Under the pieces are notes generated by a model. It was not told where the DNA came from. It saw only the letters and a list, made by a program, of their open reading frames with translations, and made no database searches. The translations under genes and the position numbers were made by a program. From Candidatus Rifleibacteriota bacterium (GTDB lineage Bacteria > Muiribacteriota > Ozemobacteria > Ozemobacterales > Ozemobacteraceae), in the NCBI GenBank assembly GCA_015233565.1, contig JADFXM010000003.1, positions 155,063 to 219,062 on the forward strand: 64,000 nt of DNA. Direction: 5' to 3'. This document shows positions 1-23,791 of the stretch, one piece after another (the stretch's first letter is position 1; every line of letters starts with the position of its first letter).

Positions 1-628
1 TAAATGAAATCAATTCGGACAAGGGTGCATTACAATAATTTTGCAATAATGTGCAAGAACTGAAAATTCTTTCGAGATGTTTTTTCATTAGCAAAATATC
101 TTCTTTTTCTGGATAAAGGAACTTTCTGCTGGAATAATACAAAACCTCAAAAAGCAAGTTAAGTAAATCCCAGCCGTGTGGAACGGGTTTTTCATAAAAA
201 TGTTCCCAATCAAAAAAAACTACCTTTTTTTCGAGTAGAACTGCATTCCCTAACGAAAAATCACCATGTAAAAAGGAATTACCAGCGCTGTCTCTCGGCC
301 AACTGAGGAGATAGAAGTCAATAATTTTTTCAATATGGGGAAAATTTTTTTTATACCCATTAAAATAATGGGGGGAAAACCCCTCAAAATATTCAATTTC
401 AAGTCTAAAAAATTTTTCCTTTTTGTGAGTAATATTACAAATTTTTTCTTTTCTTTCTGGAAAATTCCAGCTTTGAAACCAAGTCCAGCCTCTATCTTCA
501 TTTTGCAAATTTCTTATTCCATCTGTTGAATCCGAGACTTTAATTATGGATTTCTTTTCTGAAATTTCCTCGCAAAGATAAGATTTAATTTCGCTTTGAT
601 GTTGGCAATTCCTTAATAAACAAATCAC
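1..628 (-). CDS. Small-molecule kinase/phosphotransferase of the protein-kinase-like (APH / choline-kinase) fold; C-terminus runs off the left edge of the window
   Basis: Absent from the ORF track because it has no stop in the window. My minus-strand translation is uninterrupted from a GTG at 628-626 (3 nt after the stop of the upstream methyltransferase) to position 1: ...DFYLLSWPRDSAGNSFLHGDFSLGNAVLLEKKVVFFDWEHFYEKPVPHGWDLLNLLFE... It carries the HGDxxxxN catalytic loop and the DWE metal-binding motif of APH/ChoK-type kinases. The start codon is uncertain and the N-lobe looks short. Confidence 0.55.
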   Translation of the reverse strand, partial: MICLLRNCQHQSEIKSYLCEEISEKKSIIKVSDSTDGIRNLQNEDRGWTWFQSWNFPERKEKICNITHKKEKFFRLEIEYFEGFSPHYFNGYKKNFPHIEKIIDFYLLSWPRDSAGNSFLHGDFSLGNAVLLEKKVVFFDWEHFYEKPVPHGWDLLNLLFEVLYYSSRKFLYPEKEDILLMKKHLERIFSSCTLLQNYCNAPLSELISF

Positions 629-631
629 GCT

Positions 632-1669
632 TTATTTGGTTCCAATTGCGATGATTGAAGGCGACACCGAAAGAAGTCGGAGTTTTCTGAAAATAAAATG
701 TTTGATTAGCCAACTAATCACTGATTGAAAAATGATTTTGTTTTCAGAATCCCTTATTTTAGAAGCCACTGGTATCAAATGCGTGAACTTTTTTCGAAAA
801 GGAATAATTATTTCAGGAAAACGATAATCCGGAAAAGCTGCGAATAACTCAACTCTACAAAAACCAACTGCTTTTAATAACCTCTTTATTTCATAGAAAG
901 AGTAAATCCAGTTTACATACGTTCTTCCAAGTTTCCATTTCGATATTAGATTTGCAAGCCATCGTGGAGCTATTGTTGAAAATGCCAGATTTGTATGTGG
1001 GTCTTTTGCACCAAAAAACATTTTCCAATCATACCTATTTTCAATAGCTAAGTAAATTTTTCCACCTGGATTCAATTGCCTTGAAACATAGCCGAGAAAA
1101 ATTTTTTGTTGCTCTCCTGGATTCTCAGAATAATTCACCTCTTGGAATTTTCCATAATATGAGCTTAATTCAATCATTCCTTTTTCTGGAATCCATTCAA
1201 GGACCCCGTTAACAATTGAAACATCAAATTTTTTCTCAAACTCAGGCAATCTTCTTAAATCAGCACAAACCAACTCAATATTATCTAGTTTTTCTTCGAC
1301 TGTCCTGACCTTCAATAATTCCAATGATTCCAGAGTTTGGTCAATTCCAATGACTGAGTTAGTCCTTTTTGCTAGGGGGATTGTCAATGCACCCCACATA
1401 CATCCGTAATCAATACAGTTTTCGTTTCCATTCAACCTTAACAATTCTAAACCTGCGCTGCGTTTTGGGGAAAAAATAACATCCTCAAGGTGTGGATAAA
1501 ATTGTTTTATCACTTTCGCAGAAGGCAAATTCTTCAAAAATTCGATCAATTTCTGATTTTCACATTTTGTCAGATTAGACCAATAACCTCTCGGATGATC
1601 TACTAAAAAGATCCCTGAAGAAGTAAAATTCCTGAAGTATTTATGCAATTCACTTTTCATTTTGTTCAA
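632..1669 (-). CDS. Class I SAM-dependent methyltransferase
   Basis: 345-aa ORF with a Rossmann SAM motif I (IDYGCMWGALT), an acidic post-I region (VCADLRRL) and motif III-like VSIVNGVLEWIP. It overlaps the upstream gene by 20 nt, which indicates an operon. Confidence 0.8.
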   Translation of the reverse strand: MNKMKSELHKYFRNFTSSGIFLVDHPRGYWSNLTKCENQKLIEFLKNLPSAKVIKQFYPHLEDVIFSPKRSAGLELLRLNGNENCIDYGCMWGALTIPLAKRTNSVIGIDQTLESLELLKVRTVEEKLDNIELVCADLRRLPEFEKKFDVSIVNGVLEWIPEKGMIELSSYYGKFQEVNYSENPGEQQKIFLGYVSRQLNPGGKIYLAIENRYDWKMFFGAKDPHTNLAFSTIAPRWLANLISKWKLGRTYVNWIYSFYEIKRLLKAVGFCRVELFAAFPDYRFPEIIIPFRKKFTHLIPVASKIRDSENKIIFQSVISWLIKHFIFRKLRLLSVSPSIIAIGTK

Positions 1670-2504
1670 AATGCGGCTTCATTAAAGAAGCTTTTTTCTC
1701 TGCCCATTTTAAGTGATATACGATTATAAAGCTAACAAGAAAAATGGAAACACCTCTAATCAGTAGAATAATAAAAATAATCCAAGTGAAAAAATAAGTA
1801 CTGAAGATTTCAAACAAAATGCAGAAACAGATGAAATCTTCTGATCTGGCACGCTCATCAAAAATGTTGGTAAATAAAATATATATTTTTTTTAAAAGCG
1901 GAAATCGGTTTTCCTTCAAATCTGAGGCGTTGTTTGTTTTAACATTGGAGTTGTTTGATTCTGGATTCTTTTTTGAAGCACATGCTGTCATATTTTCAAA
2001 CAAAATCCTTTTACTGAAAGACATTAGATTTGCAGCACAAAAAAATGGAATTAATGGAAGTACTATCAGAAAAAAAATGTCGTGTGATTTATTGAAAATG
2101 TAAAAGCCAAGGCCAATTTGTAAACCCAACTCATTAAGTAAAGCCCCATACTCATCCAAAATTTGCCCGGTAGCAGAAGTTTGATTTGTTAATCTGGCGA
2201 AATGGCCATCGCTCCAGTCAAGAATTCCTTTGAAGAAAAAGATAATTGTGGAAAGAATGACTGTAACTTTGCTTGGAATCGAGAGTAAAATTCCCCCAAT
2301 AATTCCGCACAGACAATAAGCCAAAGTGACCGTGTTAGGTTTTATTTTCGTTTTAAGTAATAAAAAAACCAGTATTGCTCCTGTCTCCATATAAAAAATC
2401 GATTTGATAAAAGTATACGGATTTTTTTTCCAATCAGAAAGATATGGGGCATAAGCACGATTATATTCGTATTGTTGTTTTCTAATTAGGTTATATGGTG
2501 TCAT
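1650..2504 (-). CDS. CDP-alcohol phosphatidyltransferase-family integral membrane transferase
   Basis: 284-aa multi-pass membrane ORF with DWSDGHFAR-x8-G-x3-D, the DG-x2-AR-x8-G-x3-D core of the CDP-alcohol phosphotransferase signature. The last Asp of the canonical motif is not obvious. Confidence 0.65.
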   Translation of the reverse strand: MTPYNLIRKQQYEYNRAYAPYLSDWKKNPYTFIKSIFYMETGAILVFLLLKTKIKPNTVTLAYCLCGIIGGILLSIPSKVTVILSTIIFFFKGILDWSDGHFARLTNQTSATGQILDEYGALLNELGLQIGLGFYIFNKSHDIFFLIVLPLIPFFCAANLMSFSKRILFENMTACASKKNPESNNSNVKTNNASDLKENRFPLLKKIYILFTNIFDERARSEDFICFCILFEIFSTYFFTWIIFIILLIRGVSIFLVSFIIVYHLKWAEKKASLMKPHFEQNEK

Positions 2505-2514
2505 GCTATTAATC

Positions 2515-3999
2515 TCAGGTCACCCTGCCTTTTATCAATTCCTCTTGGTTACTATATTTACGAAGAAAGAATTGGAATTTTTCCTCCCAGGCTTTTGGAT
2601 TTCTCTTCTTGGAAAACTCATTAAATTCATGGGTTTTTTTATCAACCAAGTCAACTAATTCTTTTCTGGATATAACAAAATCCGGAGAATCCTCGGGAAT
2701 AACTATCTCCGCTGATTTTACATCCATTTTAAGTCCATTTTCCGGGAGGTATCCTTTTTTTTGACATAATGTTTGGAGTTCAGAACCTGGCATAGGGTTT
2801 GCAATAAAGAATGAAACACTGTCAAATCCTGTATCAAATGGATATTGGAGTGTTTCCATTATTTCTTCTTTGGTTTCGCCTGGATAACCCAAAGAGAATA
2901 ATCCATGCATCTGGATCTTGTTTTCATGACATACTCTGATCAACTCTTTGATTTCTTCTTTTTCGGGAACTGACTTATGAATGATCTCTTGGAGTACACG
3001 TCTTGATGCACTCTCTATTCCTATTGCAAGCTGGTAAGCACCGGAATCAGCCATTAATTCAATCATTTCTTTATCAAGGGTTTTAGCCATTATTCCATGT
3101 GGTGTACACCAAACAAGATTATATCTTTTAAGGCATGAAAACAGCTCCATGGCTCTGTTGCGGTCAATTGTCATGTTATCGTCCATGAATTGGATCTCAT
3201 TTATTCCATATTTATTTACTAGTACATCAATTTCCTGAATAATATTCTTTACAGACCGGGCCCTGAATTTCCTTCCCCAAAAGTTTACAGTTGAACAGAA
3301 TACACAATTAAAAGGGCAACCTCGGGAGGTCATAACATGACTGACTCTATCTCTTCTTGCAAATGGAGCATAGGGTATTCCTATGACAATGTATTTTTCC
3401 ATATCAATTAGATCCCAGGCTGGGAAAGGAATAGAGTCAAGATCACTAATACGATTTTCCATTGGATTAACAATTATCTTTCCGCAATGTTTATAAGCAA
3501 TACCATCAAAATCAAATTCCACTTTTCCCTGGTTAAGCATGGAAAGCAGCCTTGGTAACCTGGTTTCCCCTTCTCCCATAATTACGAAATCTACGCTGTC
3601 GTTGAAAAGGGTCTTTTCGGGTTCTAAAGAGGGATGAACTCCACCCAATACGACTGGTACAGCTGGGTTAATTCTTTTTACCATCCTGCTGACGGCAAGG
3701 GCATTTTCTTGATGGGCAGAAAACATTGATTGGATACCTACAAGGTCAGGTGAAACAGCCTTTATTTTTTCAAATAATTCCTTCTCTGACAGACCGTATG
3801 TAATGTACCCGTTATTTTCTGCCGTGTTAAAGTAGCCTTCACAGGTTGAATCTATTATTGTGACTTTGAAACCATTTCCTTTCAAGGCAGCTCCGATATA
3901 TAGGAGGCCCAGGGGAATGGCAATTCTTCTAATACTGTCTGCTGCGATTGTATTCTGAGGATTGATAAGGAGTATAGAATTAATTTTTTTGCTAATCAT
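2515..3999 (-). CDS. B12-binding-domain radical SAM enzyme (class B rSAM, likely methyltransferase/tailoring enzyme)
   Basis: N-terminal cobalamin-binding-like Rossmann region (LLINPQ...PLGLLYIGAAL...VVLGGVHPS) followed by a radical-SAM core with SRGCPFNCVFC (CxxxCxxC). The track ORF begins at a GTG at 4017, and I prefer the first ATG at 3999. Confidence 0.8.
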   Translation of the reverse strand: MISKKINSILLINPQNTIAADSIRRIAIPLGLLYIGAALKGNGFKVTIIDSTCEGYFNTAENNGYITYGLSEKELFEKIKAVSPDLVGIQSMFSAHQENALAVSRMVKRINPAVPVVLGGVHPSLEPEKTLFNDSVDFVIMGEGETRLPRLLSMLNQGKVEFDFDGIAYKHCGKIIVNPMENRISDLDSIPFPAWDLIDMEKYIVIGIPYAPFARRDRVSHVMTSRGCPFNCVFCSTVNFWGRKFRARSVKNIIQEIDVLVNKYGINEIQFMDDNMTIDRNRAMELFSCLKRYNLVWCTPHGIMAKTLDKEMIELMADSGAYQLAIGIESASRRVLQEIIHKSVPEKEEIKELIRVCHENKIQMHGLFSLGYPGETKEEIMETLQYPFDTGFDSVSFFIANPMPGSELQTLCQKKGYLPENGLKMDVKSAEIVIPEDSPDFVISRKELVDLVDKKTHEFNEFSKKRNPKAWEEKFQFFLRKYSNQEELIKGRVT

Positions 4000-4027
4000 A
4001 ATTTTGTTTTGTACCACAGTTCATACG

Positions 4028-5962
4028 TCATAAGTTTAAACTGATTTTTGCCCTTTTCACTATTTCTTCGGCATTCAGCTTGTAATGCTTCACTAGGGTT
4101 TCAGGAGAGCCTGATTGACCAAATTCGTCATTCACCCCTACAATGAAAAATGATTTTGTTCTCAGATTTCCGGCTTTTAATATTTCTGCAGCAACAAGGT
4201 TGCCAAGGCCACCCGATTGATGTTCTTCCGCAACTATCACATGCTCTATCTCCTGAGCAGATCTGACAACAATTTTTTTGTCCAAGGGTTTTATCGTATG
4301 CATATTAACAATTCTAGTCTCAATGCCCCATTCAGATTTTAATACATATGCAGCCAACATGGCTTCTGCCACCATTATTCCGCAGGCAAAAATCGCCAAG
4401 GATTCATTTTCGGACTCATAATCCTCTGAAAGAAAAGTATCAAAAGAATCGGAAAACATTTTTTGCGCTTTCCGGAACCTAATAATATTTGCTTTTCCTA
4501 GTACAAACTTTGTTTCAGATTTTGTCACAATGGGTATTTTGGATTTTCCAAGTCTGATATATAAAGGTCCCTCCGCATTAATGGCTTCTTGGGTGGCTTT
4601 TCCCGTTTCGAAGGAATCGCAGGGTACAACTACTTTCATGTTTGGGAGACAGGTTGTAAGAAATATTTCCTCAAGGGCTTGGTGCGAGGCACCGTCTTTT
4701 CCAACGGTTAAACCACCAACACCTGCAATTTTGACATTAAAATTTGGTAGGCACACTGAGCTTCTTAACTGATCCCAATTTCGTCCGCACGCAAAAATCC
4801 CATAGGACCCAATGAATGGAATAAATCCCTCTTTGGCAAGACCTCCAGCAACATTTGTCATGTTTTGTTCTGCGATACCAAAGTTAATAACACCCTTTTT
4901 TTTGCTAAAATCAAAATTCTCAAATTCTGTACCGAAAATTGAATTACAAGAGTCTGCTGAGAGTTTTAATATTGCTAAATCATTGGTTTTTGCCAGGATT
5001 CGGCCGAACGCTTGCCTGGTGGTAGCCATTTCAACTCTCATGGTATCATGGCTATTCCATTTATATAATGAGGATCCATGATCAGTGTTCGGATAATAGC
5101 CCGCAGGAAAGGGTCTGCGGATATATTTTTCAAGATCACTCTTTTTCTGTTGTAATTCGCTTAATGCTGCTGAAAGTTGATCATAATCAGGGGCAGTGCT
5201 ATGCCACTTGTGATTATTTTCCATGAACGAAACATTTTTTCCCTTAATTGTCTGAGCAATAATAACACTTGGTTTTCCCTTAAAAGCTATGGCTTTTTCA
5301 TAGGCACATAATATCTTTTCCATATTATGTCCGTCGATTTCTATCACGTTCCATCCAAAAGATTTGTATTTGGAGGATAACTCCTCAAGCTTCATAACAT
5401 CTTCAGTACTGCCATCGATCTGTAGATGATTTCGATCGATAATTCCTATCAGATTATCAAGTCCGAAGTTAGAGGCGCTCATTGCTGCTTCCCAGATGCT
5501 TCCTTCCTGCTGTTCTCCATCACCCATAAGGCAGAAAACATTATAGTCTTGCCCTTTGATTTTTCCTGCCAAGGCAGAACCCACTGCAACTCCAAGCCCC
5601 TGACCCAGTGAACCTCCGGAAAATTCTACACCGTTGAGCCGTCTCATATCTGGGTGGCCCTGAAACCTGCTATGGAGTTCTCTGAAGCTCATCATATCTT
5701 CTACACTGCAATATCCTGTAGAAGCCAATGCCGCATACAGAGCAGGGCAGGCATGGGCCTTGGAAAGGAAGAACCTGTCCCTGTCGGGCCAACCAGGGTT
5801 TGATGGATCATGCTTTAACTTGTCAAAATACAATGCTGCAATCAGATCCATTGCAGAAAGAGAACCTCCGGGATGCCCAGAATTGGCATTATAAATCGCA
5901 ATGAGAGCATAAGCTCTCATTCTGTCGGCAATTTCAACTATTTGATCTGCAGGCAACCGCAT
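4028..5962 (-). CDS. tkt: Transketolase (single-chain, N-terminal ThDP + Pyr + C-terminal domains)
   Basis: SGHPGGSLS, the ThDP motif GDGEQQEGSIWEA...NLIGIIDRN, and the Pyr-domain motif FGIAEQNM. The length is typical for a full-length transketolase. Start chosen at the ATG at 5962, 1 nt after the transaldolase stop; the track start at 5989 is an alternative. Confidence 0.9.
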   Translation of the reverse strand: MRLPADQIVEIADRMRAYALIAIYNANSGHPGGSLSAMDLIAALYFDKLKHDPSNPGWPDRDRFFLSKAHACPALYAALASTGYCSVEDMMSFRELHSRFQGHPDMRRLNGVEFSGGSLGQGLGVAVGSALAGKIKGQDYNVFCLMGDGEQQEGSIWEAAMSASNFGLDNLIGIIDRNHLQIDGSTEDVMKLEELSSKYKSFGWNVIEIDGHNMEKILCAYEKAIAFKGKPSVIIAQTIKGKNVSFMENNHKWHSTAPDYDQLSAALSELQQKKSDLEKYIRRPFPAGYYPNTDHGSSLYKWNSHDTMRVEMATTRQAFGRILAKTNDLAILKLSADSCNSIFGTEFENFDFSKKKGVINFGIAEQNMTNVAGGLAKEGFIPFIGSYGIFACGRNWDQLRSSVCLPNFNVKIAGVGGLTVGKDGASHQALEEIFLTTCLPNMKVVVPCDSFETGKATQEAINAEGPLYIRLGKSKIPIVTKSETKFVLGKANIIRFRKAQKMFSDSFDTFLSEDYESENESLAIFACGIMVAEAMLAAYVLKSEWGIETRIVNMHTIKPLDKKIVVRSAQEIEHVIVAEEHQSGGLGNLVAAEILKAGNLRTKSFFIVGVNDEFGQSGSPETLVKHYKLNAEEIVKRAKISLNL

Positions 5963-5963
5963 T

Positions 5964-7322
5964 TTATCTGCACCACTGAAGCAGCTCATCGTAACTTTTT
6001 CTAAAACCGTTCAGTGTAATCAAAGTGGGTTTGAACGAATCAAATTCTTCTCTTTTTAACTTTTCTGGCTCATAAGCTTTAACAAATGTGTCGCTCTTCA
6101 TTAAGCGATCAAGAATGTGTTGATCTATTGGGTCAGAAAGGCACGGTGAATAGTCCCTGAGCTTCCCGTCAAATTCTGTAAGTTCAACAGGGTCAATCGT
6201 CATGTGTATCGGAATACTGCTGGCATCTGTAATCAAACGATCAACATGCCATGGTTTGTTGATAGAAGCTCCTAACAATAAACTGTTTCGGAAGCCCCTG
6301 TCTCGATAGAGAATTTTGTAGGCTCTTTTGGTAACTGCTGTGGATGACCAGGAACTTGCTTTTTCTCTGTGGTCGCAGACTCCTTCTCCAACCTCTTCCG
6401 CAACCGGAGCTTCAAGTCTGCTATTCATCTGAGTCAAATAACAGTGGTCTGCTTTTCCTTTTTCCAGAATTTCTCCAAATGCAAGTTGCTGGGAAACACT
6501 GTAATTGACGGTAATATTTACCCCTATCCCCTTCGATGTAAGCTCTGAAGCTACTTTCAAGCCTGCAAATGTTCCTGGGACTTTAAAAACAACATTAGGC
6601 TTTTCCCCGTTAAAAGCCTCCTTCAACCAAATGAAAATCATCTCCGCTTCGTTTATCATCGCTGTCGAATTATCTGAGATGTTTGGATTTAGCTGCAAAC
6701 TTACATAGCCAAAATTTTTGTTTCCAAAATTGAAGATGGGTCTGATTATGCGAGCTGATTCAAGTACTACTTCGGTGTAAATCCTTGCCGCCATTTGATC
6801 CAAGGTGTAGGAGGGGAATTTTTTCTTGATTTCGTCACGTTTTTTACCCCAGTATTCTGGGAATCTTTTTATGGTTTTATTGAAAATAGAGGGATTTGTG
6901 GTTACTGCGACTGCACCTTTTCTAAGGGCGTGTTTCAGCCCTGTTCCATCATTATGACTTAATCTGTTATTGATTAATTTCTGATCAGAATCTTGAGATA
7001 GCTTGCAGATCCTGGCATTCTTAATTATTGAGGCCTCATGGTCTATCATTTCTGTTAAGTTGGAATACCCAGCGTCTTTAAGAATCGAAAAGTTGGTTTT
7101 ACAAATATCTGAGATACTTTCATTTGAAAGGCAGGAGTTGCGTTCAGGGTTCTGGAGATTCCATTTGGGCAAACAAGAGTTAAGATCCATTGTTACTTCA
7201 GCCAACTGTTCCGCAAGTTCCCTTTCTTTTGTGCGCAAAAACTGTCGTCTTAATTCCATGAGTTGGTTTTCAAATTCTGAAGGCGGAGTCTCCAGTACCA
7301 ACATGTTTTTTTCCTTCTGCAT
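5964..7322 (-). CDS. tal: Transaldolase-family enzyme (long form with N-terminal extension)
   Basis: VTTNPSIF and VVFKVPGTFAGLKVASELTSKGIGVNITVNYSVSQ match the transaldolase signatures TTNPS and xKIPxT (Schiff-base Lys) ...GI..N.T..FS..Q. Confidence 0.8.
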   Translation of the reverse strand: MQKEKNMLVLETPPSEFENQLMELRRQFLRTKERELAEQLAEVTMDLNSCLPKWNLQNPERNSCLSNESISDICKTNFSILKDAGYSNLTEMIDHEASIIKNARICKLSQDSDQKLINNRLSHNDGTGLKHALRKGAVAVTTNPSIFNKTIKRFPEYWGKKRDEIKKKFPSYTLDQMAARIYTEVVLESARIIRPIFNFGNKNFGYVSLQLNPNISDNSTAMINEAEMIFIWLKEAFNGEKPNVVFKVPGTFAGLKVASELTSKGIGVNITVNYSVSQQLAFGEILEKGKADHCYLTQMNSRLEAPVAEEVGEGVCDHREKASSWSSTAVTKRAYKILYRDRGFRNSLLLGASINKPWHVDRLITDASSIPIHMTIDPVELTEFDGKLRDYSPCLSDPIDQHILDRLMKSDTFVKAYEPEKLKREEFDSFKPTLITLNGFRKSYDELLQWCR

Positions 7323-7379: not shown

Positions 7380-8492
7380 CTACTTAAGTGAAAGGTTCAT
7401 CTGGAACATCACATCTTTCAATTCCTTCAGAAAATTTTCAATATCTCGGAAATCAATTGCCCCAAGGTTAGCCAACCTCAAGGTTTTCATTTTCCCAATC
7501 TTTCCTGGGTAAATTGTAAACTCTCTTTCAAAGAGAAGATCATGGAGTTTTTTAAAATCATAGTTCGGATGATCCGGTTCAATAAATGTTGTCAATATAT
7601 GGCTTTCCCATTCATCTTTGAGAAGCCTTTTAAAACCAAGCATTTCAACACCTTTTACCAACGTTTCCCAGCTTCGGGAGTATCTTCTATATCTAGCCTC
7701 CACGCCACCCTCTGCAAAAAATTCATCTATTGCTTTTCTGAGAGAATATATTACCTGAATTGGGGGCGTGAATCTCATTTCATGAGTCTTTAAGAACGTA
7801 TTATACTCATTGAAAAGGTTTAAATAAAAGGATCTTGGTGGATTGGTCGCTGTTTTTTCCAATTCCTCTTTTTTGCAAATGACAAACGCACAACCGGGCA
7901 TCCCCTGAATACATTTGTTACTTGAAGCCATCATAAAGTCAATGTTATATTCCTTGATATTAAATGGGATGCCGGCAAAACTTGAGATGGTGTCAAGAAT
8001 AAACACACAGTGGTACTTTTTTGCTATTGTTCCTATCTCTTTTGCTGGATTCAGTAACCCGGTGGTTGTTTCATGATGTACCGCAGCGACAAACTTAATA
8101 GATCTGTCATTTTTTAATGCGCTTTCAATCTGGTCAAGTACAGGTGGTTTGTCCCAATCACAGGTAATTTCAACATACGGAATGGAATATGCCTGAGCAA
8201 TTTTACACATTCTTTCGCCATATGCTCCGTTATTAACTACGAGGAGTTTGTGATCTTTATCCACCACTGAGTTAATTACCGCGTCTTGAGCAGATGTGCC
8301 AGAGCCCCCAATTAATACTGTAGTATAATTTTCATCTCCTCCAGCTATTTTCGTAAGGTCACTGATAATTGAGTCGACGATATTTACAAATTCTTTTTCC
8401 CTATGACAAATGTCTGGTACCACCTGTGCCATCTTTACACTGTCAGTAGTTGTAGCAGGCCCGGGGTTAAGAAGTATATTTCTTTTAATCAT
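7380..8492 (-). CDS. Class V aminotransferase, 2-aminoethylphosphonate:pyruvate transaminase (PhnW)-like / serine-pyruvate aminotransferase-like
   Basis: N-terminus ILLNPGPATTTDSV and the PLP-Lys motif SSNKCIQGMPG resemble PhnW-type enzymes. A GAGGG Shine-Dalgarno lies 5 nt upstream of the ATG at 8492, so I prefer that start over the track start at 8504. Confidence 0.7.
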   Translation of the reverse strand: MIKRNILLNPGPATTTDSVKMAQVVPDICHREKEFVNIVDSIISDLTKIAGGDENYTTVLIGGSGTSAQDAVINSVVDKDHKLLVVNNGAYGERMCKIAQAYSIPYVEITCDWDKPPVLDQIESALKNDRSIKFVAAVHHETTTGLLNPAKEIGTIAKKYHCVFILDTISSFAGIPFNIKEYNIDFMMASSNKCIQGMPGCAFVICKKEELEKTATNPPRSFYLNLFNEYNTFLKTHEMRFTPPIQVIYSLRKAIDEFFAEGGVEARYRRYSRSWETLVKGVEMLGFKRLLKDEWESHILTTFIEPDHPNYDFKKLHDLLFEREFTIYPGKIGKMKTLRLANLGAIDFRDIENFLKELKDVMFQMNLSLK

Positions 8493-8520
8493 AAATGCCC
8501 TCATTTGTTAGAAAATGATA

Positions 8521-9768
8521 TTACAGTGCGAAAAGTCTTTCTTTTAGTCTTGAAAACCCCTCTTCCAGTTCCTGCTTATCTGCTGAAAAAGTGAGTCGGA
8601 TATAATCATCACTGTTCGGACCGTAGGCAATTCCTGGTACACAACCTACCCCGGCATGATATAACATGTATTTGTACACTAGGATGGAATTATATCTCAT
8701 TGACAACTCAATTTCTTCTTCAGAAATATTTCTTTTTTTAGATTCCAACCTTACTTTTTCCATAAGCTTCTTTTTGTGTGCTTCTACAAACCTTCTGATA
8801 TTCGGGAATGCATAACTAGTTCCTTCAGGCATGGGACATGTAAAACCTTCAAGCTCATTAAGCCTGGGTATCAACCAGTTTCTCTTTTCCTCATATATCT
8901 GAAATTCCCTACCAAACTCTAAATTTTCATAATTATCCAGAACAAACCTGGCAAGTCTTTGAGCTCTTGTACAGGTGAATGGACTCTGTGCTATGAATGT
9001 TGAAGTAATATCAGGACTTTCAGGAAGAACTGCCCAACCGATTCTTTCACCTTGTAATCCCAGTCTGGCAAGACTTCCCAACATAATTGAAAATTTTCTT
9101 TTCCTATCAAAAAGATGCACTGGAAGATGTTTCTTTTTGTCATATATTTCAGGAAAATGATTTTCGTCATACATAATGAAAAAATCTTTTTCCTCTGCAA
9201 GGTCCACAAGCCCTGTGAGTGTTTCTTTATCATAAATAAAACCTGTTGGGTTATGAGGTGAAGTAAGAATCAGCATCTGCATATTATTTTTGATCAAAGG
9301 CCTGAGGTTATTTGCGGATACTTTATTGAAACCAAGCGGAAGTCTTGTAATATCTCTTCCGTCCAGTGAATGTGCTGCTGAAAGAGTGTAAAACGGATAA
9401 GAGGGATCAGGTATTACAATTTGATCTCCAAATTTTGTAAAGGTCTGCAAGGTTAGACTAATTGCACCTGTGCCTCCAACAGTTACAGCAATAGAGGCAG
9501 GATTAACCTCCAGATCAAACATCCGCCCATACCAAGAAGCGATTGATTTTCTCAGATCCTTGGCACCTGCGGATTTTTCATACCGGAAGATAGTTTTATC
9601 CTCCCTGGAAATAATCCTCTTTGCTTCATCATATATCTTTTGGCATGGTAGAAATCCGGCTTGTCCTCGGCTGAGATTAACTGCACCTGGTTCTGCAGCG
9701 GCTCCTTCAGAAATTTGTTTGGTCAGATAAAATGGAATCTCTTTGGCTATTGGGTTTATTTTGGCCAT
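8521..9768 (-). CDS. Class I/II aminotransferase-fold protein; canonical PLP-binding lysine apparently replaced (SLAR instead of SxSK)
   Basis: LTSPHNPTG and YDENHF (DExY-like) motifs are followed by IMLGSLARLGLQGERIGW, where fold-type I aminotransferases have SxSK-x(6-7)-GxRxG. The codon at 9064-9066 is AGA (Arg). Confidence 0.7.
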   Translation of the reverse strand: MAKINPIAKEIPFYLTKQISEGAAAEPGAVNLSRGQAGFLPCQKIYDEAKRIISREDKTIFRYEKSAGAKDLRKSIASWYGRMFDLEVNPASIAVTVGGTGAISLTLQTFTKFGDQIVIPDPSYPFYTLSAAHSLDGRDITRLPLGFNKVSANNLRPLIKNNMQMLILTSPHNPTGFIYDKETLTGLVDLAEEKDFFIMYDENHFPEIYDKKKHLPVHLFDRKRKFSIMLGSLARLGLQGERIGWAVLPESPDITSTFIAQSPFTCTRAQRLARFVLDNYENLEFGREFQIYEEKRNWLIPRLNELEGFTCPMPEGTSYAFPNIRRFVEAHKKKLMEKVRLESKKRNISEEEIELSMRYNSILVYKYMLYHAGVGCVPGIAYGPNSDDYIRLTFSADKQELEEGFSRLKERLFAL

Positions 9769-9804: not shown

Positions 9805-11214
9805 TCAGGCATCTTTTTCATGACCCACTGACCTCTGGAGCTGATTTTCAGGATCATAGAACCTCTGGAATCTATTTATTTGTTCGGAAATATCCGGAAT
9901 AACGAATTCTTGTGAATTCATTTTATGTTTGATTTCCTCAAACAGATCCCAGATCAAGAATTCCAGGATCTTTTTGGAAAAATCACACAGTCTCTTATCA
10001 ATTTTTTCTATGTTTCCTGCGTTTGCAGCAAAAGCATCATAGGTACAACCCCCGCCACAGACTCCTATTGCACTGCATTTATTACATTCTTCCATAGTAA
10101 ACGGAGACCTTCTCGCCCATTTAATGAATTCAGTCTCTTTTGAAATATCCCTGTTAACTTCATCAGCAGCTTTGGATATTTTATCTGATACTAAAAGACT
10201 CTTACAGACTCCTATTTTTCCTCTGGAATCAATACAGAAGCCCCGCCCTTGAGCCTGACATTCATTATATCTTGGCACTTGTTGGGTAAAAGGTTCTATA
10301 AATCGGGAAATATTTTCTACAAATATTCCTCTTTCCCTGAAGGAAAGATATACCTTGATGAGGAAATCGGCATATTGTTCCATTGTGATGGCTGTGTGAT
10401 TATCTTTTTCAAGCAAGTGGTGACCAAAATTCAGACCGAGGCTCGAGATTCCAAGATTTACGAAATAATCTATCACCTCATCAATTTTTTCTATGTTGTG
10501 GACTCCTGTAACGGCGGAAATACCTGTCTTGCAGCCAGCGTCCCTTAAAAGTTTGTACCCTTCCAGGGAGGATTCAAATGTTCCAGTGCCATTTTTAAAA
10601 ACCCGGAACTTATTATGTACTTCAGCGGGGCCGTCCAGCGATACAAGCATAAGGGCCTTTGTTCTTGCAAAAAAGTCGGCCAGCTCTTTTGTAACCAATG
10701 AACCATTTGTAAAAATAATAACTCTTGATCCTTTGATTTTCATTACACGTTCCAGAATATACTTTACGGCGGGGATATTCATCAGGGGCTCTCCGCCAGT
10801 AATAGAAACTGTTTTTTTGTCATCAGGTTTGATATTTGCTTCAAAAAGATCCAGGGCCTTTTCAGCAGTATCAAGAGTCATGGAATGGCTCATCTGACTT
10901 TCATTCATGTTTTCTTCAATTTGACAATAGTCACATCTATAATTGCACCTGTTGTCAACAAGCATTACTATGTTTTTAATGCCTATGTGACCTGTACCGG
11001 ACTTGAGAATCTGATATCTCTGATTATCTTGTTCAGGTGTGGTGCAGAATCCATGCCGGCGCAGGGGGCTTTCCGAATTCTGTGCGGATTGTATCATTGA
11101 ATCAAGGTAATTTTTTTCTGAATAAATTTTTTGAAGGGTAAGTCCATTAAAGAGTGCAGAATAATTTCCTTTATCAAATCTTCTGACAAATTCTGATAAT
11201 CTATAATTGTCCAT
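9805..11214 (-). CDS. Radical SAM enzyme with C-terminal SPASM domain
   Basis: Radical-SAM cluster motif NRCNYRCDYC (CxxxCxxC). C-terminal Cys clusters are CQAQGRGFCIDSRGKIGVC and CNKCSAIGVCGGGC (SPASM). Confidence 0.85.
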   Translation of the reverse strand: MDNYRLSEFVRRFDKGNYSALFNGLTLQKIYSEKNYLDSMIQSAQNSESPLRRHGFCTTPEQDNQRYQILKSGTGHIGIKNIVMLVDNRCNYRCDYCQIEENMNESQMSHSMTLDTAEKALDLFEANIKPDDKKTVSITGGEPLMNIPAVKYILERVMKIKGSRVIIFTNGSLVTKELADFFARTKALMLVSLDGPAEVHNKFRVFKNGTGTFESSLEGYKLLRDAGCKTGISAVTGVHNIEKIDEVIDYFVNLGISSLGLNFGHHLLEKDNHTAITMEQYADFLIKVYLSFRERGIFVENISRFIEPFTQQVPRYNECQAQGRGFCIDSRGKIGVCKSLLVSDKISKAADEVNRDISKETEFIKWARRSPFTMEECNKCSAIGVCGGGCTYDAFAANAGNIEKIDKRLCDFSKKILEFLIWDLFEEIKHKMNSQEFVIPDISEQINRFQRFYDPENQLQRSVGHEKDA

Positions 11215-12333
11215 TTATTTCCGCCCTTGAAAAATCAGTGTACATAGATAAGAAGAATGGATAAGATCTTTTTGGTCCTGGGACTTGATTACTTCAATCT
11301 TGGGAATATCAAGTTTGCGGTAAATGGGACAATACTCATCCGGTTCATCCAATAATCCGTTAAGGTAGCGCCGGCCGGCGCAACCACCACCGCAGACATC
11401 AACCTTGTCGCATTGTTTTCTACAGAATTCAGGAATCGTCCGGATTCTTTTGAAGCTTTCATTTTCGTAGGCAGGGGCAAAGGATTCCTTGAGATCTTCA
11501 ATATGGACAGTGCTTTTTGTCCAGTATTCGGCAGGAATTGCCCTGCCATCACCAAGGGTTATCGTTTCGTTGCTGTTTATCCAATACACGCAGGGCATGA
11601 CTTCCCCATCAGGGTGAATTCTAAGGCTTTCAAGTCCACATGGAGATTGAGATACTGCGGGTATTATGTTTAACATCGCATTGATGATCGGTTCTGAACA
11701 GCTTATAAGGTTTCCATGTGTGAAAAGTAGCCCAACTGCCTCCCAAAACTGATCGTAACTAAGCTTGAATTCAAATATTCCAGCCTTCGGTACTGTTTTG
11801 AAGATGTTTACTCTCAAGTTGCAGTTTTCTTTTGCCGCCCTCTGCAACAGGCCTGGAATTTGTTTAAAATTGATATTCATCAAGGCAGTTGTAATGCTGA
11901 ATTCAATTCGGAGTTTCTGACATTTTTTTATGGCTTCATCAACAAAATTCCAGGATGCACCTTTTCTAAAAGTATTTTGTTCAATCTCATCTGGAAAATC
12001 CAGTGAAATGTCAACATCATTAAATCTCTTTAGAATAGCTTCATCCATTTGTCCTATGGTGTAGCCATTGGATGTAACTGACATCCTGATCCCCTTTTTG
12101 CAGCAGAGATCGACCATGTCTAAAAATTCAGGGTTAAGAATGTTCTCACCGGTTCCGAAATTTATTGAATGGATTTTTTTGTTTTTTCCTTCAATGATAT
12201 CTTCAAATTCAGAATATGTAAGGGTGTTCCCTCTGAGGGGTCGTGAATAGCAGTGCCCACAGTTGAGGTTGCAGTTTGCGGTAGAGCCAATACCAAGGGA
12301 AATGCCGTTATCTCTATTAGGTTCACAGTTCAT
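11215..12333 (-). CDS. Radical SAM enzyme with C-terminal SPASM domain
   Basis: NCNLNCGHC (CxxxCxxC); C-terminal CGLESLRIHPDGEVMPC and CRKQCDKVDVCGGGC. The gene abuts the downstream gene with no gap. Confidence 0.85.
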   Translation of the reverse strand: MNCEPNRDNGISLGIGSTANCNLNCGHCYSRPLRGNTLTYSEFEDIIEGKNKKIHSINFGTGENILNPEFLDMVDLCCKKGIRMSVTSNGYTIGQMDEAILKRFNDVDISLDFPDEIEQNTFRKGASWNFVDEAIKKCQKLRIEFSITTALMNINFKQIPGLLQRAAKENCNLRVNIFKTVPKAGIFEFKLSYDQFWEAVGLLFTHGNLISCSEPIINAMLNIIPAVSQSPCGLESLRIHPDGEVMPCVYWINSNETITLGDGRAIPAEYWTKSTVHIEDLKESFAPAYENESFKRIRTIPEFCRKQCDKVDVCGGGCAGRRYLNGLLDEPDEYCPIYRKLDIPKIEVIKSQDQKDLIHSSYLCTLIFQGRK

Positions 12334-13363
12334 TTGATTGATTTTCTCCAGTAGGGTTTCTGTAAGTATTTACTTCCCTGGGTATTTTATTCAGGTCGCA
12401 ATGAGAGCATAGGTCAAGATCGTCAGCCTCATAATTTATATGCATGCGCCTCAAAGAAGTCATTTTTTCGCCATGCCAAATATTCTTAATACTGTCTTTT
12501 TTTACATTTCCCAGAGGGAATCTACAGGCATTATCACCAGTGCAAGGGTATACGGTGCCATCCCAGGCAATTGTAAGCCTTTGCCAGAGTTGTGGACATG
12601 GAAAGATACTTTCAGGCTTATTTTGAGCTCTTCTCTTATCTCTGGGATTACCATCGGGGCTTTGGTAAATTGATATCCTGACCATATCAGCTCTGGTTCG
12701 CCAGTAATGAATAAATGCCATAAGTTCTTCATGGGTCTGCTTTTGATCTATGATTTGGACAATAATTTCAGGATTTCTGATACCCTGTTTTTCCTTTTCA
12801 TTTGTCAGAAATTCAATGTTTTTGAGTACCAGTTCCAAGTCCGAGCCGACCTTTATTTTTTGATAGGTCAGAGGGGATGCTGCATCAATAGAGAAAATAA
12901 TTCGATCCAGGTCACTTTCGATAATTTTGTGGGACATCTCCTTATTGATCAAAACTCCATTGGTGCTGATCCTTATATCCAAGATCCCCTTTTGTTTTGC
13001 ATAGGTGATCATTTCAATCAGTCTCGGGTTGAGAAATGATTCCCCAAGCCAGTCAGGATCTATGGAACATAAACCATTTTCCATTCCCTGATCAATTATC
13101 ATTTTGAAAAGGTCAAACTCCATATCTCCGATGTTCGTTCTCCTGGAGTGCCTTATGCAGTGCTGACACATGAGATTACATCGACCGGAAACTTCTATGT
13201 CCAGATGAAGCGGAAAATCAGATACAATGAATTGCCTTGGGTTCTGTTCCCATTTTCTTCTGTATTCAATTACCGCTGGATCGGCTTGTGGAAAAGGAAT
13301 ACTTGATTTCCCTATTATATCCAGGTGGTAGGCGTATATCTGAAGTTTTGAATGAGTATGCAT
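12323..13363 (-). CDS. Radical SAM enzyme with SPASM/twitch-like C-terminal Cys motifs
   Basis: GRCNLMCQHC (CxxxCxxC); C-terminal CPQLWQRLTIAWDGTVYPC and CSHC. It overlaps the next gene by 11 nt and is a paralogue of the gene at 23792-24796. Confidence 0.8.
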   Translation of the reverse strand: MHTHSKLQIYAYHLDIIGKSSIPFPQADPAVIEYRRKWEQNPRQFIVSDFPLHLDIEVSGRCNLMCQHCIRHSRRTNIGDMEFDLFKMIIDQGMENGLCSIDPDWLGESFLNPRLIEMITYAKQKGILDIRISTNGVLINKEMSHKIIESDLDRIIFSIDAASPLTYQKIKVGSDLELVLKNIEFLTNEKEKQGIRNPEIIVQIIDQKQTHEELMAFIHYWRTRADMVRISIYQSPDGNPRDKRRAQNKPESIFPCPQLWQRLTIAWDGTVYPCTGDNACRFPLGNVKKDSIKNIWHGEKMTSLRRMHINYEADDLDLCSHCDLNKIPREVNTYRNPTGENQSNEL

Positions 13364-18001: not shown

Positions 18002-18003
18002 TC

Positions 18004-18804: not shown

Positions 18805-19186
18805 GATATTCTCTGGCAAATGGTCATTTTGACAAAAAAACTATAAAATACAATTATTTGTGTTTTTCGAAATATTTTCCAAGTTTATATCGATCGAAAT
18901 TCGCAGCCGTAAAAAATGATCTTCGCGATGGCTCAACTAAAAAATCTTGTAATTTTTTTGGCGGAAGGTTAATCATTTTGATCATAATGTTCTTTTCGGA
19001 GGATAAGCTTTCGAAAGATCGGGGAAATTTTTGTTCATTTTATTTTACAAAGTTAGACATTCGATTTTTTTTGATAATTTTTCATTGCCTTTCTAAGAAT
19101 CCCAAAAAAATGAAAGTTCACTGTTACTCTTAGGTGATCATTTAATCTAATGAGGGTTTTTAATTTCTTTTAATAGTTCTTACGAC

Positions 19187-22306: not shown

Positions 22307-22357
22307 AATCCTAATTATAACTCATCTTTTGCATTATTTTTTTTGCAAAACTGTATT

Positions 22358-23686: not shown

Positions 23687-23791
23687 TTCAGCGTCCTTCT
23701 TCTCATTTAGTATGAATTAGTAATCACCTAAAGGAAAAAAAATTGTTAACGTAGACGGCTCTTCGATGAAAAACAGCTGCTAAATTTCAAA

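What the first reader, a model, noticed from the sequence alone, without database searches (positions are those of the whole stretch)
1..2504. Kinase + CDP-alcohol phosphotransferase + methyltransferase, with a LicC-like nucleotidyltransferase at 13374-14102: a Lic-like phospho-head-group activation and transfer module
Seen in sequence: an APH/choline-kinase-fold gene (HGDFSLGN...FFDWE), a membrane protein with the DG-x2-AR-x8-G-x3-D CDP-alcohol phosphotransferase core, SAM methyltransferases (632-1669, 14109-14774) and a small NTP-transferase (LAAGIGSRL), all in the same operon series. Established knowledge: the sequence kinase -> cytidylyltransferase -> phosphotransferase is how phosphocholine (LicA/LicC), CDP-alcohol head groups, di-myo-inositol phosphate and CMP-aminoethylphosphonate are activated and transferred. 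Inference: the product of the transketolase/transaldolase/aminotransferase/rSAM genes may be phosphorylated, CDP-activated and transferred as a phosphodiester-linked substituent onto a glycan or lipid. It could alternatively form a phosphodiester compatible solute. The kinase is cut by the window edge, so the island continues to the left.
Basis: partly seen in the sequence, partly recalled or inferred. Interest (0 to 1): 0.65.

Follow-up and report, generated by a model that had tools for sequence, protein, structure and literature searches.

The report
Phosph(on)ate head-group transfer module
The three genes at the window's left edge are a conserved but uncharacterised set (an unusual membrane phosphotransferase, a methyltransferase and a miniature kinase) that elsewhere sits beside phosphonate-making genes, so this surface-sugar operon probably attaches a small CMP-activated aminoethylphosphonate-like group, not phosphocholine by the Lic route.

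Summary
On the minus strand, 1-2504 encodes a kinase-like protein cut by the edge, a SAM methyltransferase and a CDP-alcohol phosphotransferase (PT). 13374-14102 encodes a LicC/PntC-clade nucleotidyltransferase. All lie in one tightly packed 13-gene unit inside a nonulosonic-acid/O-antigen locus.

The Lic-like reading is only partly right. The PT + methyltransferase + kinase trio recurs in many uncultured bacteria, including SAR11, often with a B12-radical-SAM enzyme and a LIC12162-family transferase. In 11 of 19 related loci it sits next to Fom1/Fom2/FomC-like phosphonate genes: a cytidylyltransferase-PEP mutase fusion, phosphonopyruvate decarboxylase and an Fe-ADH. A phosphonate head group needs no activating kinase.

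The window's nucleotidyltransferase and class-V aminotransferase match the two halves of Treponema denticola Tde1415, which makes CMP-aminoethylphosphonate. The window has no PEP mutase. At that syntenic position it has a recurrent transketolase/transaldolase/three-rSAM/aminotransferase cassette.

The PT family lacks the fourth Asp of the family signature. The head group's identity and the kinase's substrate remain inferred. I rate it a new variant of nucleotide-activated head-group tailoring.

The parts
1..628 (-). Miniature protein-kinase-fold (APH/RIO-like) kinase. GTG start at 628. The C-terminal 33-36 residues are cut by the window edge.
   Evidence: The family shows invariant K, HGD-x4-N and DWE. 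The model has pLDDT 95 and Foldseek matches RIO and APH kinases. The gene is in the same frame as the methyltransferase, separated by one TAA at 632-634.
632..1669 (-). Class I SAM-dependent methyltransferase, the constant partner of the kinase.
   Evidence: Pfam Methyltransf_31/25/11. 72% identical to the Riflebacteria ortholog and 34% to the N-terminal half of the 720-aa methyltransferase-kinase fusions.
1650..2504 (-). Integral-membrane CDP-alcohol phosphotransferase-family protein of an atypical subfamily (D96xxD99GxxAR-x8-G113xxxD117xxxA121).
   Evidence: PF01066 at 48 bits. 198 homologs of about 290 aa. HMM alignment to AF2299 and PIPS puts Ala at the fourth Asp. At least 5 hydrophobic segments.
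2515..4017 (-). B12-binding radical-SAM methyltransferase, related to SD_1168 and Fom3.
   Evidence: Pfam B12-binding + Radical_SAM. Best NCBIfam NF038361 at 360 bits, cut-off 575. 34-40% identical to the B12-rSAMs that follow the module in related loci.
4028..5989 (-). Transketolase, part of the recurrent cassette.
   Evidence: NF004559 at 569 bits, cut-off 488. 61-65% identical in L018, L019 and L022.
5964..7322 (-). Long (452 aa) transaldolase/FSA-family protein.
   Evidence: PF00923. FKVPGT lysine is invariant. 48-56% identical orthologs lie next to the cassette genes or to PntC/AEPT homologs in L018, L019, L020 and L022.
7380..8504 (-). 2-aminoethylphosphonate transaminase (AEPT, PhnW/AepZ) family aminotransferase.
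   Evidence: TIGR03301 at 447.5 bits, cut-off 360.8. Best PDB match is the C-terminal domain of 6pd1, E 2e-103, then PhnW structures. The next family is at E 1e-32.
8521..9768 (-). Class I/II PLP-dependent aminotransferase-family enzyme of the cassette.
   Evidence: PF00155. 58-65% identical in L018 and L019.
9805..13363 (-). Three radical-SAM (SPASM/twitch-type) enzymes: 9805-11214, 11215-12333 and 12323-13363.
   Evidence: Pfam Radical_SAM, SPASM and Fer4_12. 54-70% identical and in the same order in L018 and L019.
13374..14102 (-). LicC/PntC-clade nucleotidyl (probably cytidylyl) transferase.
   Evidence: PF12804 and PF00483. Best PDB match is the Tde1415 PntC domain, E 2.9e-21 over residues 2-241; LicC is second at E 3.8e-11.
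14109..14774 (-). TylF-type methyltransferase, first gene of the tightly packed unit.
   Evidence: PF05711. 61-62% identical to SAR11 genes that flank the same phosphotransferase family in L012-L014 and L016.
15240..16934 (-). LIC12162-family transferase, a frequent neighbour of the module.
   Evidence: TIGR04331 at 328 bits, cut-off 225. Present next to the module in L001, L002, L004, L010, L015, L028, L029 and the P0102 locus.

Best explanation
The finding is the downstream end of a 13-gene operon in a nonulosonic-acid/O-antigen locus. I propose that the operon makes a small aminoalkyl-phosph(on)ate head group, activates it with CTP, tailors it, and transfers it at the membrane.

Proposed steps, all inferred unless marked:
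1. The AEPT-family aminotransferase (7380-8504) makes the amine. The most likely product is 2-aminoethylphosphonate from phosphonoacetaldehyde. An alternative is a phospho-amino-alcohol from an aldehyde phosphate released by the adjacent transaldolase and transketolase.
2. The PntC/LicC-type nucleotidyltransferase (13374-14102) condenses the amine with CTP to give the CMP(CDP)-conjugate, as Tde1415 does.
3. The B12-radical-SAM enzyme methylates the nucleotide-bound head group, by analogy with Fom3 acting on CMP-hydroxyethylphosphonate.
4. The atypical CDP-alcohol phosphotransferase transfers the phosph(on)yl head group to a membrane-proximal acceptor and releases CMP.
5. The methyltransferase and the mini-kinase are always paired or fused. 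I read them as tailoring enzymes for the product, or as preparing a phosphorylated acceptor, as in PgsA, PIPS and DIPPS chemistry. I do not read the kinase as a LicA-type activating kinase.

Shown by the evidence: the family assignments, the conserved trio, its association with PEP-mutase genes, and the replacement of those genes here by the cassette. Inferred: the chemical identity of the head group, the acceptor, and the order of steps.
For: -
- The nucleotidyltransferase and the aminotransferase match the two domains of Tde1415, the CMP-AEP-forming enzyme (E 2.9e-21 and 2e-103; PMC6697681).
- The phosphotransferase family has 198 homologs. Contexts were recovered for 19 distinct loci.
- PEP mutase lies within 10 kb in 11 of the 19. 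It is usually arranged as LIC12162 - CyTase-PEP mutase - Ppd - Fe-ADH - phosphotransferase - methyltransferase - kinase - B12-rSAM.
- The L001 proteins pass the PEP mutase and Ppd equivalog cut-offs (413 vs 320 bits; 427 vs 313 bits).
- L007 has PepM, two PntC, AEPT (50% identical to the window's) and Ppd next to the same module.
- In the window, the slot between LIC12162 and the module is filled by PntC + cassette + AEPT.
- The kinase family has a complete catalytic motif set and a confident kinase-fold model.
- The methyltransferase and kinase are fused in L001, L002 and L005, and overlap by ATGA in the P0206 contig.
- Fom1 CyTase and Fom3 chemistry on CMP-HEP is established (PMC6697681, PMC9204698).
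Against: - No PEP mutase or phosphonopyruvate decarboxylase is in the 64-kb window. None is in about 80 kb of five cassette-bearing loci either, so a phosphonate head group is unproven here.
- The module also occurs without PEP mutase within 10 kb in L004 and L015.
- The phosphotransferase lacks the fourth Asp, the proposed catalytic base, so its chemistry may differ from classical transfer to a hydroxyl.
- The PntC match is modest (79 bits). One of the two amine-contacting residues is Asp, as in LicC, rather than Glu.
- The roles of the three rSAMs, the class I/II aminotransferase, the methyltransferase and the kinase are unassigned.
- Nothing was tested biochemically.
Confidence: 0.55

Rival explanations
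1. Lic-like scheme. The transketolase/transaldolase/aminotransferase/rSAM cassette makes a free amino-alcohol or amino-sugar. The mini-kinase phosphorylates it. The LicC-like enzyme makes the CDP-alcohol. The phosphotransferase installs it as a phosphodiester substituent.
For: - The kinase has all catalytic residues and an APH/choline-kinase-type fold.
- The nucleotidyltransferase is in the LicC/PntC clade and has the LicC-like Asp at the position of Tde Glu104.
- No PEP mutase is near any of the five cassette loci.
- The module exists without PEP mutase in L004 and L015.
Against: - The methyltransferase-kinase pair is equally conserved where the head group is a PEP-mutase-derived phosphonate that needs no kinase.
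- Cassette loci L018 and L019 have a cytidylyltransferase (L018) but no such kinase in the recovered sequence.
- Transketolase and transaldolase products already carry phosphate.
- Only 3 of 64 family members touch the Pfam choline-kinase model.
- There is no LicB or LicD.
Confidence: 0.2
2. Phosphonolipid or phospholipid synthesis rather than glycan decoration. The phosphotransferase transfers the head group from its CMP-conjugate to diacylglycerol or ceramide, as eukaryotic CEPT/EPT does and as predicted for the Burkholderiales 'CDP-OH' phosphonate clusters.
For: - PF01066 enzymes typically have lipid substrates. Solved relatives detected include PIPS, CEPT1 and CHPT1.
- Phosphonate clusters with CDP-OH genes are already predicted to make phosphonolipids (PMC8942020).
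Against: - In most loci with enough flanking sequence the family sits among glycan genes: LIC12162, flippases, Wzy, glycosyltransferases, deoxy-sugar and nonulosonic-acid genes, and Wzm/Wzt here.
- It is far below the cut-offs of all phospholipid-synthase equivalogs.
- It lacks the fourth Asp that those enzymes keep.
Confidence: 0.15
3. The CDP-alcohol-phosphotransferase-like protein is not a transferase. Having lost the catalytic Asp, it would be a scaffold, a transporter-like protein, or a hydrolase that releases the head group from CMP (a FomD-like role).
For: The fourth Asp is Ala, Gly or Asn in every member examined. Loci of the Fom1/2/C/3 type lack an obvious FomD.
Against: D1, D2, G, A, R, G and D3 are invariant in the 33-member alignment, and apart from Ser for that Ala in L007/L009 they are kept down to 30% identity. 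Further invariant acidic residues (E40, D216, D223, E232) could supply a base. Such conservation argues for catalysis.
Confidence: 0.05

Closest known systems
Phosphonyl tailoring (Pnt) pathway: Ppm-Ppd-AEPT-PntC, exemplified by Treponema denticola Tde1413-1415 (Rice et al. 2019, PMC6697681)
   Same: A LicC-like cytidylyltransferase and an AEP transaminase are encoded together in a cell-surface glycan context. Both window proteins have Tde1415 as their best solved relative.
   Different: No Ppm or Ppd is in the window. The two activities are separate genes 5 kb apart. A transketolase/transaldolase/rSAM cassette lies between them. A CDP-OH phosphotransferase + methyltransferase + kinase + B12-rSAM set follows. 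Tde Glu104 is Asp here.
Early fosfomycin pathway of Streptomyces: Fom1 (CyTase-PEP mutase), Fom2 (Ppd), FomC (Fe-ADH), Fom3 (B12-rSAM acting on CMP-HEP)
   Same: Related loci L001, L002, L005 and the P0102 locus carry exactly this gene set next to the module; L028 and L029 carry the Fom1/Fom2/FomC-like genes without an adjacent B12-rSAM. The window keeps a homologous B12-rSAM.
   Different: No FomD or Fom4 is present. Instead a membrane phosphotransferase follows, so the CMP-conjugate is probably transferred rather than hydrolysed. The window itself lacks Fom1/2/C homologs. The B12-rSAM is closest to the SD_1168 family, whose physiological substrate is unknown (PMC9204698), and is below that family's cut-off.
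Lic phosphocholine pathway (LicA kinase, LicB permease, LicC cytidylyltransferase, LicD transferase)
   Same: There is a kinase-fold protein plus a LicC-clade nucleotidyltransferase in a glycan locus, with cytidylyl activation of a small head group.
   Different: There is no LicB or LicD. The transferase is a PF01066 membrane enzyme. The kinase is a 242-aa mini-kinase tied to a methyltransferase, not a LicA ortholog. Relatives are linked to PEP mutase.
Burkholderiales 'CDP-OH' phosphonate gene-cluster family (Group 1 phosphonolipids; Yu et al. 2013 as cited in PMC8942020)
   Same: Phosphonate genes (AEPT, PntC) are clustered with a CDP-alcohol phosphatidyltransferase-family gene.
   Different: Those clusters carry Ppm, Ppd, an alpha-ketoglutarate oxygenase and phospholipid genes, and are predicted to make lipids. 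This module carries a methyltransferase-kinase pair, a B12-rSAM and LIC12162, and lies in glycan loci. I could not compare the phosphotransferase sequences.
Canonical CDP-alcohol phosphotransferases (AF2299, PIPS, DIPPS, PgsA, CEPT1)
   Same: Pfam family, membrane topology, and the D1xxD2GxxAR...G...D3 part of the signature.
   Different: The fourth Asp, proposed as the catalytic base, is replaced by Ala throughout the subfamily. There is a subfamily-specific invariant DxRARxxD...E block near the C-terminus.

Membership tests
CDP-alcohol phosphotransferase (PF01066) | Pfam model matched above the gathering score | tested here: met
   48.2 bits against a cut-off of 22. The profile hits AF2299 at E 2e-8.
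CDP-alcohol phosphotransferase (PF01066) | Complete signature D-x2-D-G-x2-A-R-x8-G-x3-D-x3-D | tested here: not met
   D96, D99, G100, A103, R104, G113 and D117 are present. The position of the fourth Asp is A121. It is Ala in all 33 aligned members, and Gly or Asn in three further relatives.
CDP-alcohol phosphotransferase (PF01066) | Polytopic membrane protein | tested here: met
   At least 5 hydrophobic segments by 19-residue Kyte-Doolittle scan.
Housekeeping phospholipid synthases (PgsA, PssA, PIPS, ClsA) | Score above the NCBIfam equivalog cut-off | tested here: not met
   Archaetidylinositol-P synthase 36.9 vs 180; pgsA 29.5 vs 109; PIPS 27.5 vs 170; ClsA 22.3 vs 240.
Protein-kinase-like / APH-fold kinases | Catalytic residues: beta3 Lys, alphaC Glu, H-x-D-x4-N loop, metal-binding Asp | tested here: met
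   K27, HGD118-120, N125 and D137 are invariant in 64 sequences; E41 is at least 90% conserved. All are present in the window fragment.
Protein-kinase-like / APH-fold kinases | Bilobal kinase fold | tested here: met
   Model of ortholog P0200 has pLDDT 95 and pTM 0.91. Foldseek top hits are RioK1, APH(3')-Ia, amicoumacin kinase and Eph kinase, probability 1.0, TM 0.3-0.46.
LicA / choline-ethanolamine kinase (PF01633) | Match to the choline-kinase model | tested here: not met
   Only 3 of 64 family members hit PF01633 (best E 6e-4), against 50 for APH. Choline kinase in the PDB scores E 0.22 with the family profile.
Lic pathway | LicB permease and LicD (PF04991) transferase in the locus | tested here: not met
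   No such Pfam hits among the 20 proteins encoded by 2-24820.
PntC (phosphonate-specific cytidylyltransferase, LicC clade) | Full-length similarity to a characterised PntC that exceeds similarity to LicC and to sugar-1-P nucleotidyltransferases | tested here: met
   6pd1 at E 2.9e-21 over residues 2-241; LicC at E 3.8e-11 over 1-110; sugar nucleotidyltransferases at or above E 4.5e-10.
PntC (phosphonate-specific cytidylyltransferase, LicC clade) | Amine-contacting Glu104 and Glu196 of Tde-PntC | tested here: inconclusive
   The Glu196 equivalent is kept (E193). The Glu104 equivalent is Asp (D104), as in LicC (PMC6697681 section 8).
PntC (phosphonate-specific cytidylyltransferase, LicC clade) | Located near ppm | tested here: not met
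   No EDKxxxxxNS motif or PEP_mutase hit in the window. The contig could not be extended.
AEP transaminase (PhnW/AepZ, TIGR03301) | Score above the equivalog cut-off | tested here: met
   447.5 bits against 360.8; NF010006 379 bits against 296. PDB matches: 6pd1 C-terminal domain E 2e-103, PhnW E 7e-86.
Pnt/AEP pathway (Ppm-Ppd-AEPT) | PEP mutase and phosphonopyruvate decarboxylase encoded with AEPT | tested here: not met
   Absent from the window. Whether they exist elsewhere in the genome cannot be tested with these tools.
SD_1168 / Fom3-type B12 radical-SAM methyltransferase | B12-binding + radical-SAM architecture, and a score above the NF038361 cut-off | tested here: inconclusive
   The architecture is met. 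NF038361 is by far the best model (360 bits; the next is 174) but is below its cut-off of 575.

The most novel reading that the evidence does not exclude
The transketolase / long transaldolase / three-radical-SAM / aminotransferase cassette, together with an AEPT-family transaminase and a PntC-type cytidylyltransferase, may be a PEP-mutase-independent route from pentose-phosphate intermediates to a CMP/CDP-activated aminoalkyl-phosph(on)ate head group.

The basis:
- In the window the cassette occupies the genomic slot that Fom1/Fom2/FomC-type phosphonate genes occupy in sister loci.
- The AEPT homolog is linked to the transaldolase in three independent loci: the window, L022 and L020.
- L018 carries a phosphonoacetate-hydrolase-like gene inside the cassette.
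- No PEP mutase is seen in about 80 kb around five such loci.

The more conservative version has transaldolase-type cleavage of a pentulose or hexulose phosphate give an aldehyde phosphate such as glycolaldehyde phosphate. The AEPT homolog would aminate this to phosphoethanolamine or a related amino-alcohol phosphate. The most radical version is that a genuine C-P compound is made without PEP mutase.
Probability: 0.3. Interest if true: 0.85.

Novelty: new variant of a known kind. Interest (0 to 1): 0.65.

Why it matters
How phosphonates and related head groups get from their CMP-conjugates onto bacterial surfaces is an acknowledged gap. Rice et al. 2019 call the downstream 'Pnt' steps enigmatic. 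Li & Horsman 2022 note that the products of the CDP-OH clusters have never been characterised.

This analysis defines a widespread, unannotated module that is the obvious candidate for those steps. It consists of a CDP-alcohol phosphotransferase lacking the catalytic Asp, a methyltransferase paired with a 240-aa kinase, often a B12-rSAM, and a LIC12162-family transferase.

The module occurs in SAR11 and SAR116 genomes next to hydroxyethylphosphonate genes. That bears on the origin of the phosphonate esters in marine dissolved organic matter.

In the window the phosphonate genes are replaced by an uncharacterised sugar-phosphate/radical-SAM cassette. This is either a new head group or a new route to one. 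Both possibilities can be tested directly with a handful of recombinant enzymes and 31P-NMR.

Tried and rejected
- Extending the contig leftwards failed. Exact look-ups of window proteins found nothing on record. The genome-contig scan did not return the window's own genome. Window proteins are singletons at 90% identity. The region left of base 1 therefore stays unknown.
- A structure prediction of the kinase from a two-sequence alignment was useless (pLDDT 43.5). It was replaced by the 64-sequence run.
- A word-index search for kinase homologs found only one. The exhaustive profile search was needed.
- I tested whether the long-transaldolase family as a whole is tied to this chemistry. It is not. 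The member at 37% identity sits among glycoside hydrolases (L021). I did not annotate the high-GC locus L024, whose member is 41% identical.
- LIC12162 has no detectable solved relative and essentially no literature.
- Rfam found nothing in 1-30000. Promoter and terminator scans were at chance level.
- I considered the in-frame TAA between the methyltransferase and the kinase as programmed read-through. I rejected this as the default because a GTG start follows two codons later. The Riflebacteria ortholog has a stop and then ATG. Another relative uses an out-of-frame ATGA overlap.
- I considered the transketolase as a substitute phosphonopyruvate decarboxylase. I set this aside because it passes a transketolase equivalog cut-off.

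Full report
**What is in the sequence**

Every sizeable ORF from 1 to 26622 is on the minus strand. Reading in the direction of transcription, the locus contains:

| Coordinates | Product |
|---|---|
| 26622-25052 | Wzm/Wzt-type ABC exporter genes |
| 24820-16973 | Nonulosonic-acid genes: NeuB, two CMP-transferase-like proteins (one fused to a PseG-like domain), aminotransferases, an oxidoreductase |
| 16934-15240 | LIC12162-family transferase |
| 15239-14775 | 465-nt gap |
| 14774-1 | Thirteen genes with gaps of at most 57 nt, several overlapping |

The thirteen genes are, in order:

1. TylF-type methyltransferase
2. NTP transferase
3. three radical-SAM enzymes
4. class I/II aminotransferase
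5. class V aminotransferase
6. transaldolase-like protein
7. transketolase
8. B12-radical-SAM enzyme
9. CDP-alcohol phosphotransferase (PT)
10. SAM methyltransferase
11. kinase-like frame that runs off the left edge

**The kinase-like gene**

- The window fragment alone is only a weak APH hit (E 0.0027, below Pfam's cut-off).
- A word-index search found one homolog, a 242-aa Riflebacteria protein that is 62% identical.
- An exhaustive profile search found 254 cluster representatives. Nearly all are stand-alone proteins of 235-255 aa.
- In a 64-sequence alignment, K27, H118-G119-D120, N125, D137-W138-E139 and D151 are invariant. E41 is nearly invariant. This is the full lysine / glutamate / HxDxxxxN / metal-Asp set of active protein-kinase-fold enzymes.
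- Fifty of the 64 members hit Pfam APH, 35 hit TCAD9, 15 hit RIO1, and only 3 hit choline kinase.
- The family profile finds the ACAD11 kinase domain, APH(3'), Rio2, methylthioribose kinase and choline kinase among solved structures.
- With that alignment AlphaFold gives pLDDT 95 and pTM 0.91. Foldseek returns RIO kinases, APH(3')-Ia and amicoumacin kinase at probability 1.0.

It is therefore a real miniature kinase. Only about 33-36 C-terminal residues lie beyond the window.

It shares a reading frame with the methyltransferase and is separated from it by one TAA (632-634), with a GTG two codons later. In L001, L002 and L005 the two are one 720-aa fusion protein. In the Riflebacteria MAG and in the P0206 contig they are adjacent genes.

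**The phosphotransferase**

- It passes PF01066 (48 bits) and has at least five hydrophobic segments.
- It is far below every phospholipid-synthase equivalog cut-off.
- It belongs to a distinct family of about 290 aa, with 198 members found, the closest 55% identical.
- HMM alignment to AF2299 and to mycobacterial PIPS shows D96xxD99GxxAR-x8-G113xxxD117. Ala occupies the position of the fourth Asp.
- That position is Ala in all 33 aligned members and in members down to 30% identity. It is Gly in L007 and L009, and Asn in a shorter relative in L020.
- From general knowledge of this family, the fourth Asp is the proposed catalytic base. Its loss across the subfamily is a real difference. Other invariant acidic residues (E40, D216, D223, E232) could substitute for it.

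**Genomic context of the trio**

I recovered 19 distinct loci that carry the phosphotransferase family. They come from Riflebacteria, Victivallales, Magnetococcales, Bacillota, Omnitrophota, SAR11 and SAR116 genomes, and from metagenomes.

- The methyltransferase-kinase pair, fused or adjacent, accompanies the phosphotransferase in at least nine loci.
- A B12-radical-SAM enzyme and a LIC12162-family transferase are frequent companions.
- In eleven loci a PEP mutase lies within 10 kb.

The usual order is LIC12162 - (flippase) - cytidylyltransferase-PEP mutase fusion - phosphonopyruvate decarboxylase - Fe-alcohol dehydrogenase - phosphotransferase - methyltransferase - kinase - B12-rSAM. The L001 proteins pass the PEP mutase and Ppd equivalog cut-offs. 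This is the Fom1/Fom2/FomC/Fom3 gene set of fosfomycin biosynthesis. There, the CyTase domain makes CMP-hydroxyethylphosphonate and Fom3 methylates it (PMC6697681, PMC9204698).

L007 instead carries PepM, two PntC genes, an AEP transaminase 50% identical to the window's, and Ppd. The module is therefore strongly associated with CMP-activated phosphonates, which need no kinase for activation. It also occurs with LIC12162 but without PEP mutase within 10 kb in L004 and L015.

**The activating enzymes in the window**

- The nucleotidyltransferase's best solved relative is the PntC domain of Tde1415 (E 2.9e-21, full length). LicC is next (E 3.8e-11, N-terminal half). Sugar-1-phosphate nucleotidyltransferases are weaker.
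- Rice et al. name two residues that contact the AEP amine. The Glu196 equivalent is kept here. The Glu104 equivalent is Asp, as in LicC (PMC6697681).
- The class V aminotransferase passes the AEP-transaminase equivalog cut-off (447 vs 361 bits).
- Its best solved relative is the C-terminal domain of the same Tde1415 (E 2e-103), followed by PhnW structures. The next family is seventy orders of magnitude weaker.

The window thus encodes, as two genes, the two activities of the enzyme that makes CMP-AEP.

**What replaces PEP mutase**

There is no PEP mutase or Ppd anywhere in the window. Between LIC12162 and the module lies a six-gene set: three rSAMs, a class I/II aminotransferase, a long transaldolase and a transketolase.

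| Locus | Cassette-related content |
|---|---|
| L018, L019 | The six-gene set at 54-70% identity, in glycan loci; L018 also has a small cytidylyltransferase |
| L022 | AEPT homolog (58%) - transaldolase - transketolase, in the window's order |
| L020 | Transaldolase - PntC-like - B12-rSAM (40%) ... AEPT (66%), plus a D4-less phosphotransferase |
| L018 | A phosphonoacetate-hydrolase-like gene within the cassette (315 bits, below cut-off) |

None of these five loci, about 80 kb in all, shows a PEP mutase.

The cassette is therefore a positional substitute for the phosphonate triad, and by inference a functional one. I cannot decide between three options:

- It elaborates phosphonoacetaldehyde or AEP made elsewhere in the genome.
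- It yields an aldehyde phosphate that the AEPT homolog aminates to a phospho-amino-alcohol.
- It does something more unusual.

**Verdict**

The 'Lic-like' interpretation is partly supported. Nucleotide activation and membrane transfer of a small P-containing head group in a glycan operon is the best reading. The nearest known system, however, is the phosphonyl-tailoring/Fom-type logic rather than LicA-LicC-LicD, and the kinase is unlikely to be the activating step.

CDP-OH genes in phosphonate clusters are known in Burkholderiales and are predicted to make lipids (PMC8942020). The trio described here, its D4-less phosphotransferase and the cassette displacement are not described in the papers I could search.

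**What failed**

- The contig could not be extended.
- LIC12162 has no solved relative.
- Rfam and the promoter/terminator scans were uninformative.

Noticed in passing
window 626-640 (minus strand): The methyltransferase and the kinase are in the same reading frame, separated by a single TAA (632-634), with a GTG start two codons later. In L001, L002 and L005 the two are one 720-aa protein that also has an N-terminal Trm112-like zinc ribbon. This looks like a domain fission at the exact domain boundary.
   Followed up: partly
window 23792-24820 and 12323-13363: Two paralogous radical-SAM/SPASM proteins of about 345 aa have the same best NCBIfam models (W_rSAM_matur, spiro-SPASM). One is in the nonulosonic-acid part and one in the cassette. 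Similar genes sit beside NeuB or LIC12162 in L019, L028 and the P0102 locus.
   Followed up: partly
window 14109-14774; L012-L014, L016: The TylF-type methyltransferase is 61-62% identical to SAR11 (Pelagibacteraceae) genes that flank the same phosphotransferase family. That is much higher than the 37-39% identity of the phosphotransferases themselves, which suggests lateral exchange of this gene.
   Followed up: no
L018 6797-8056: Inside the cassette of L018 there is an alkaline-phosphatase-superfamily gene. Its only NCBIfam match is phosphonoacetate hydrolase PhnA (315 bits, cut-off 408). It is a second phosphonate-type family linked to the cassette without any PEP mutase in view.
   Followed up: no
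window 16973-24820: The nonulosonic-acid gene set comprises NeuB (19187-20329), a CMP-transferase-like gene (18004-18819), a 539-aa cytidylyltransferase-PseG-like fusion (20687-22306), a GSA-aminomutase-like aminotransferase passing NF004856 (22358-23686), and a GFO/IDH/MocA oxidoreductase. All are upstream of the operon.
   Followed up: no
window 25052-26622: Wzt-like ATPase and Wzm-like permease genes overlap by 4 nt at the head of the minus-strand gene series. This implies ABC-transporter-dependent export of the glycan, which would require cytoplasmic decoration or a lipid-linked donor.
   Followed up: no
L011 1104-2540 and 14419-18730: An Omnitrophota locus carries four B12-radical-SAM paralogs around the phosphotransferase + methyltransferase pair and no PEP mutase within 10 kb.
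   Followed up: no
whole window: The five window proteins that were found in the 15-billion-protein collection (four housekeeping, plus the transketolase) are all singletons at 90% identity. The genome-contig scan did not find this genome. The source organism, at about 38% GC, has no close sequenced relative in these collections and could not be named.
   Followed up: partly
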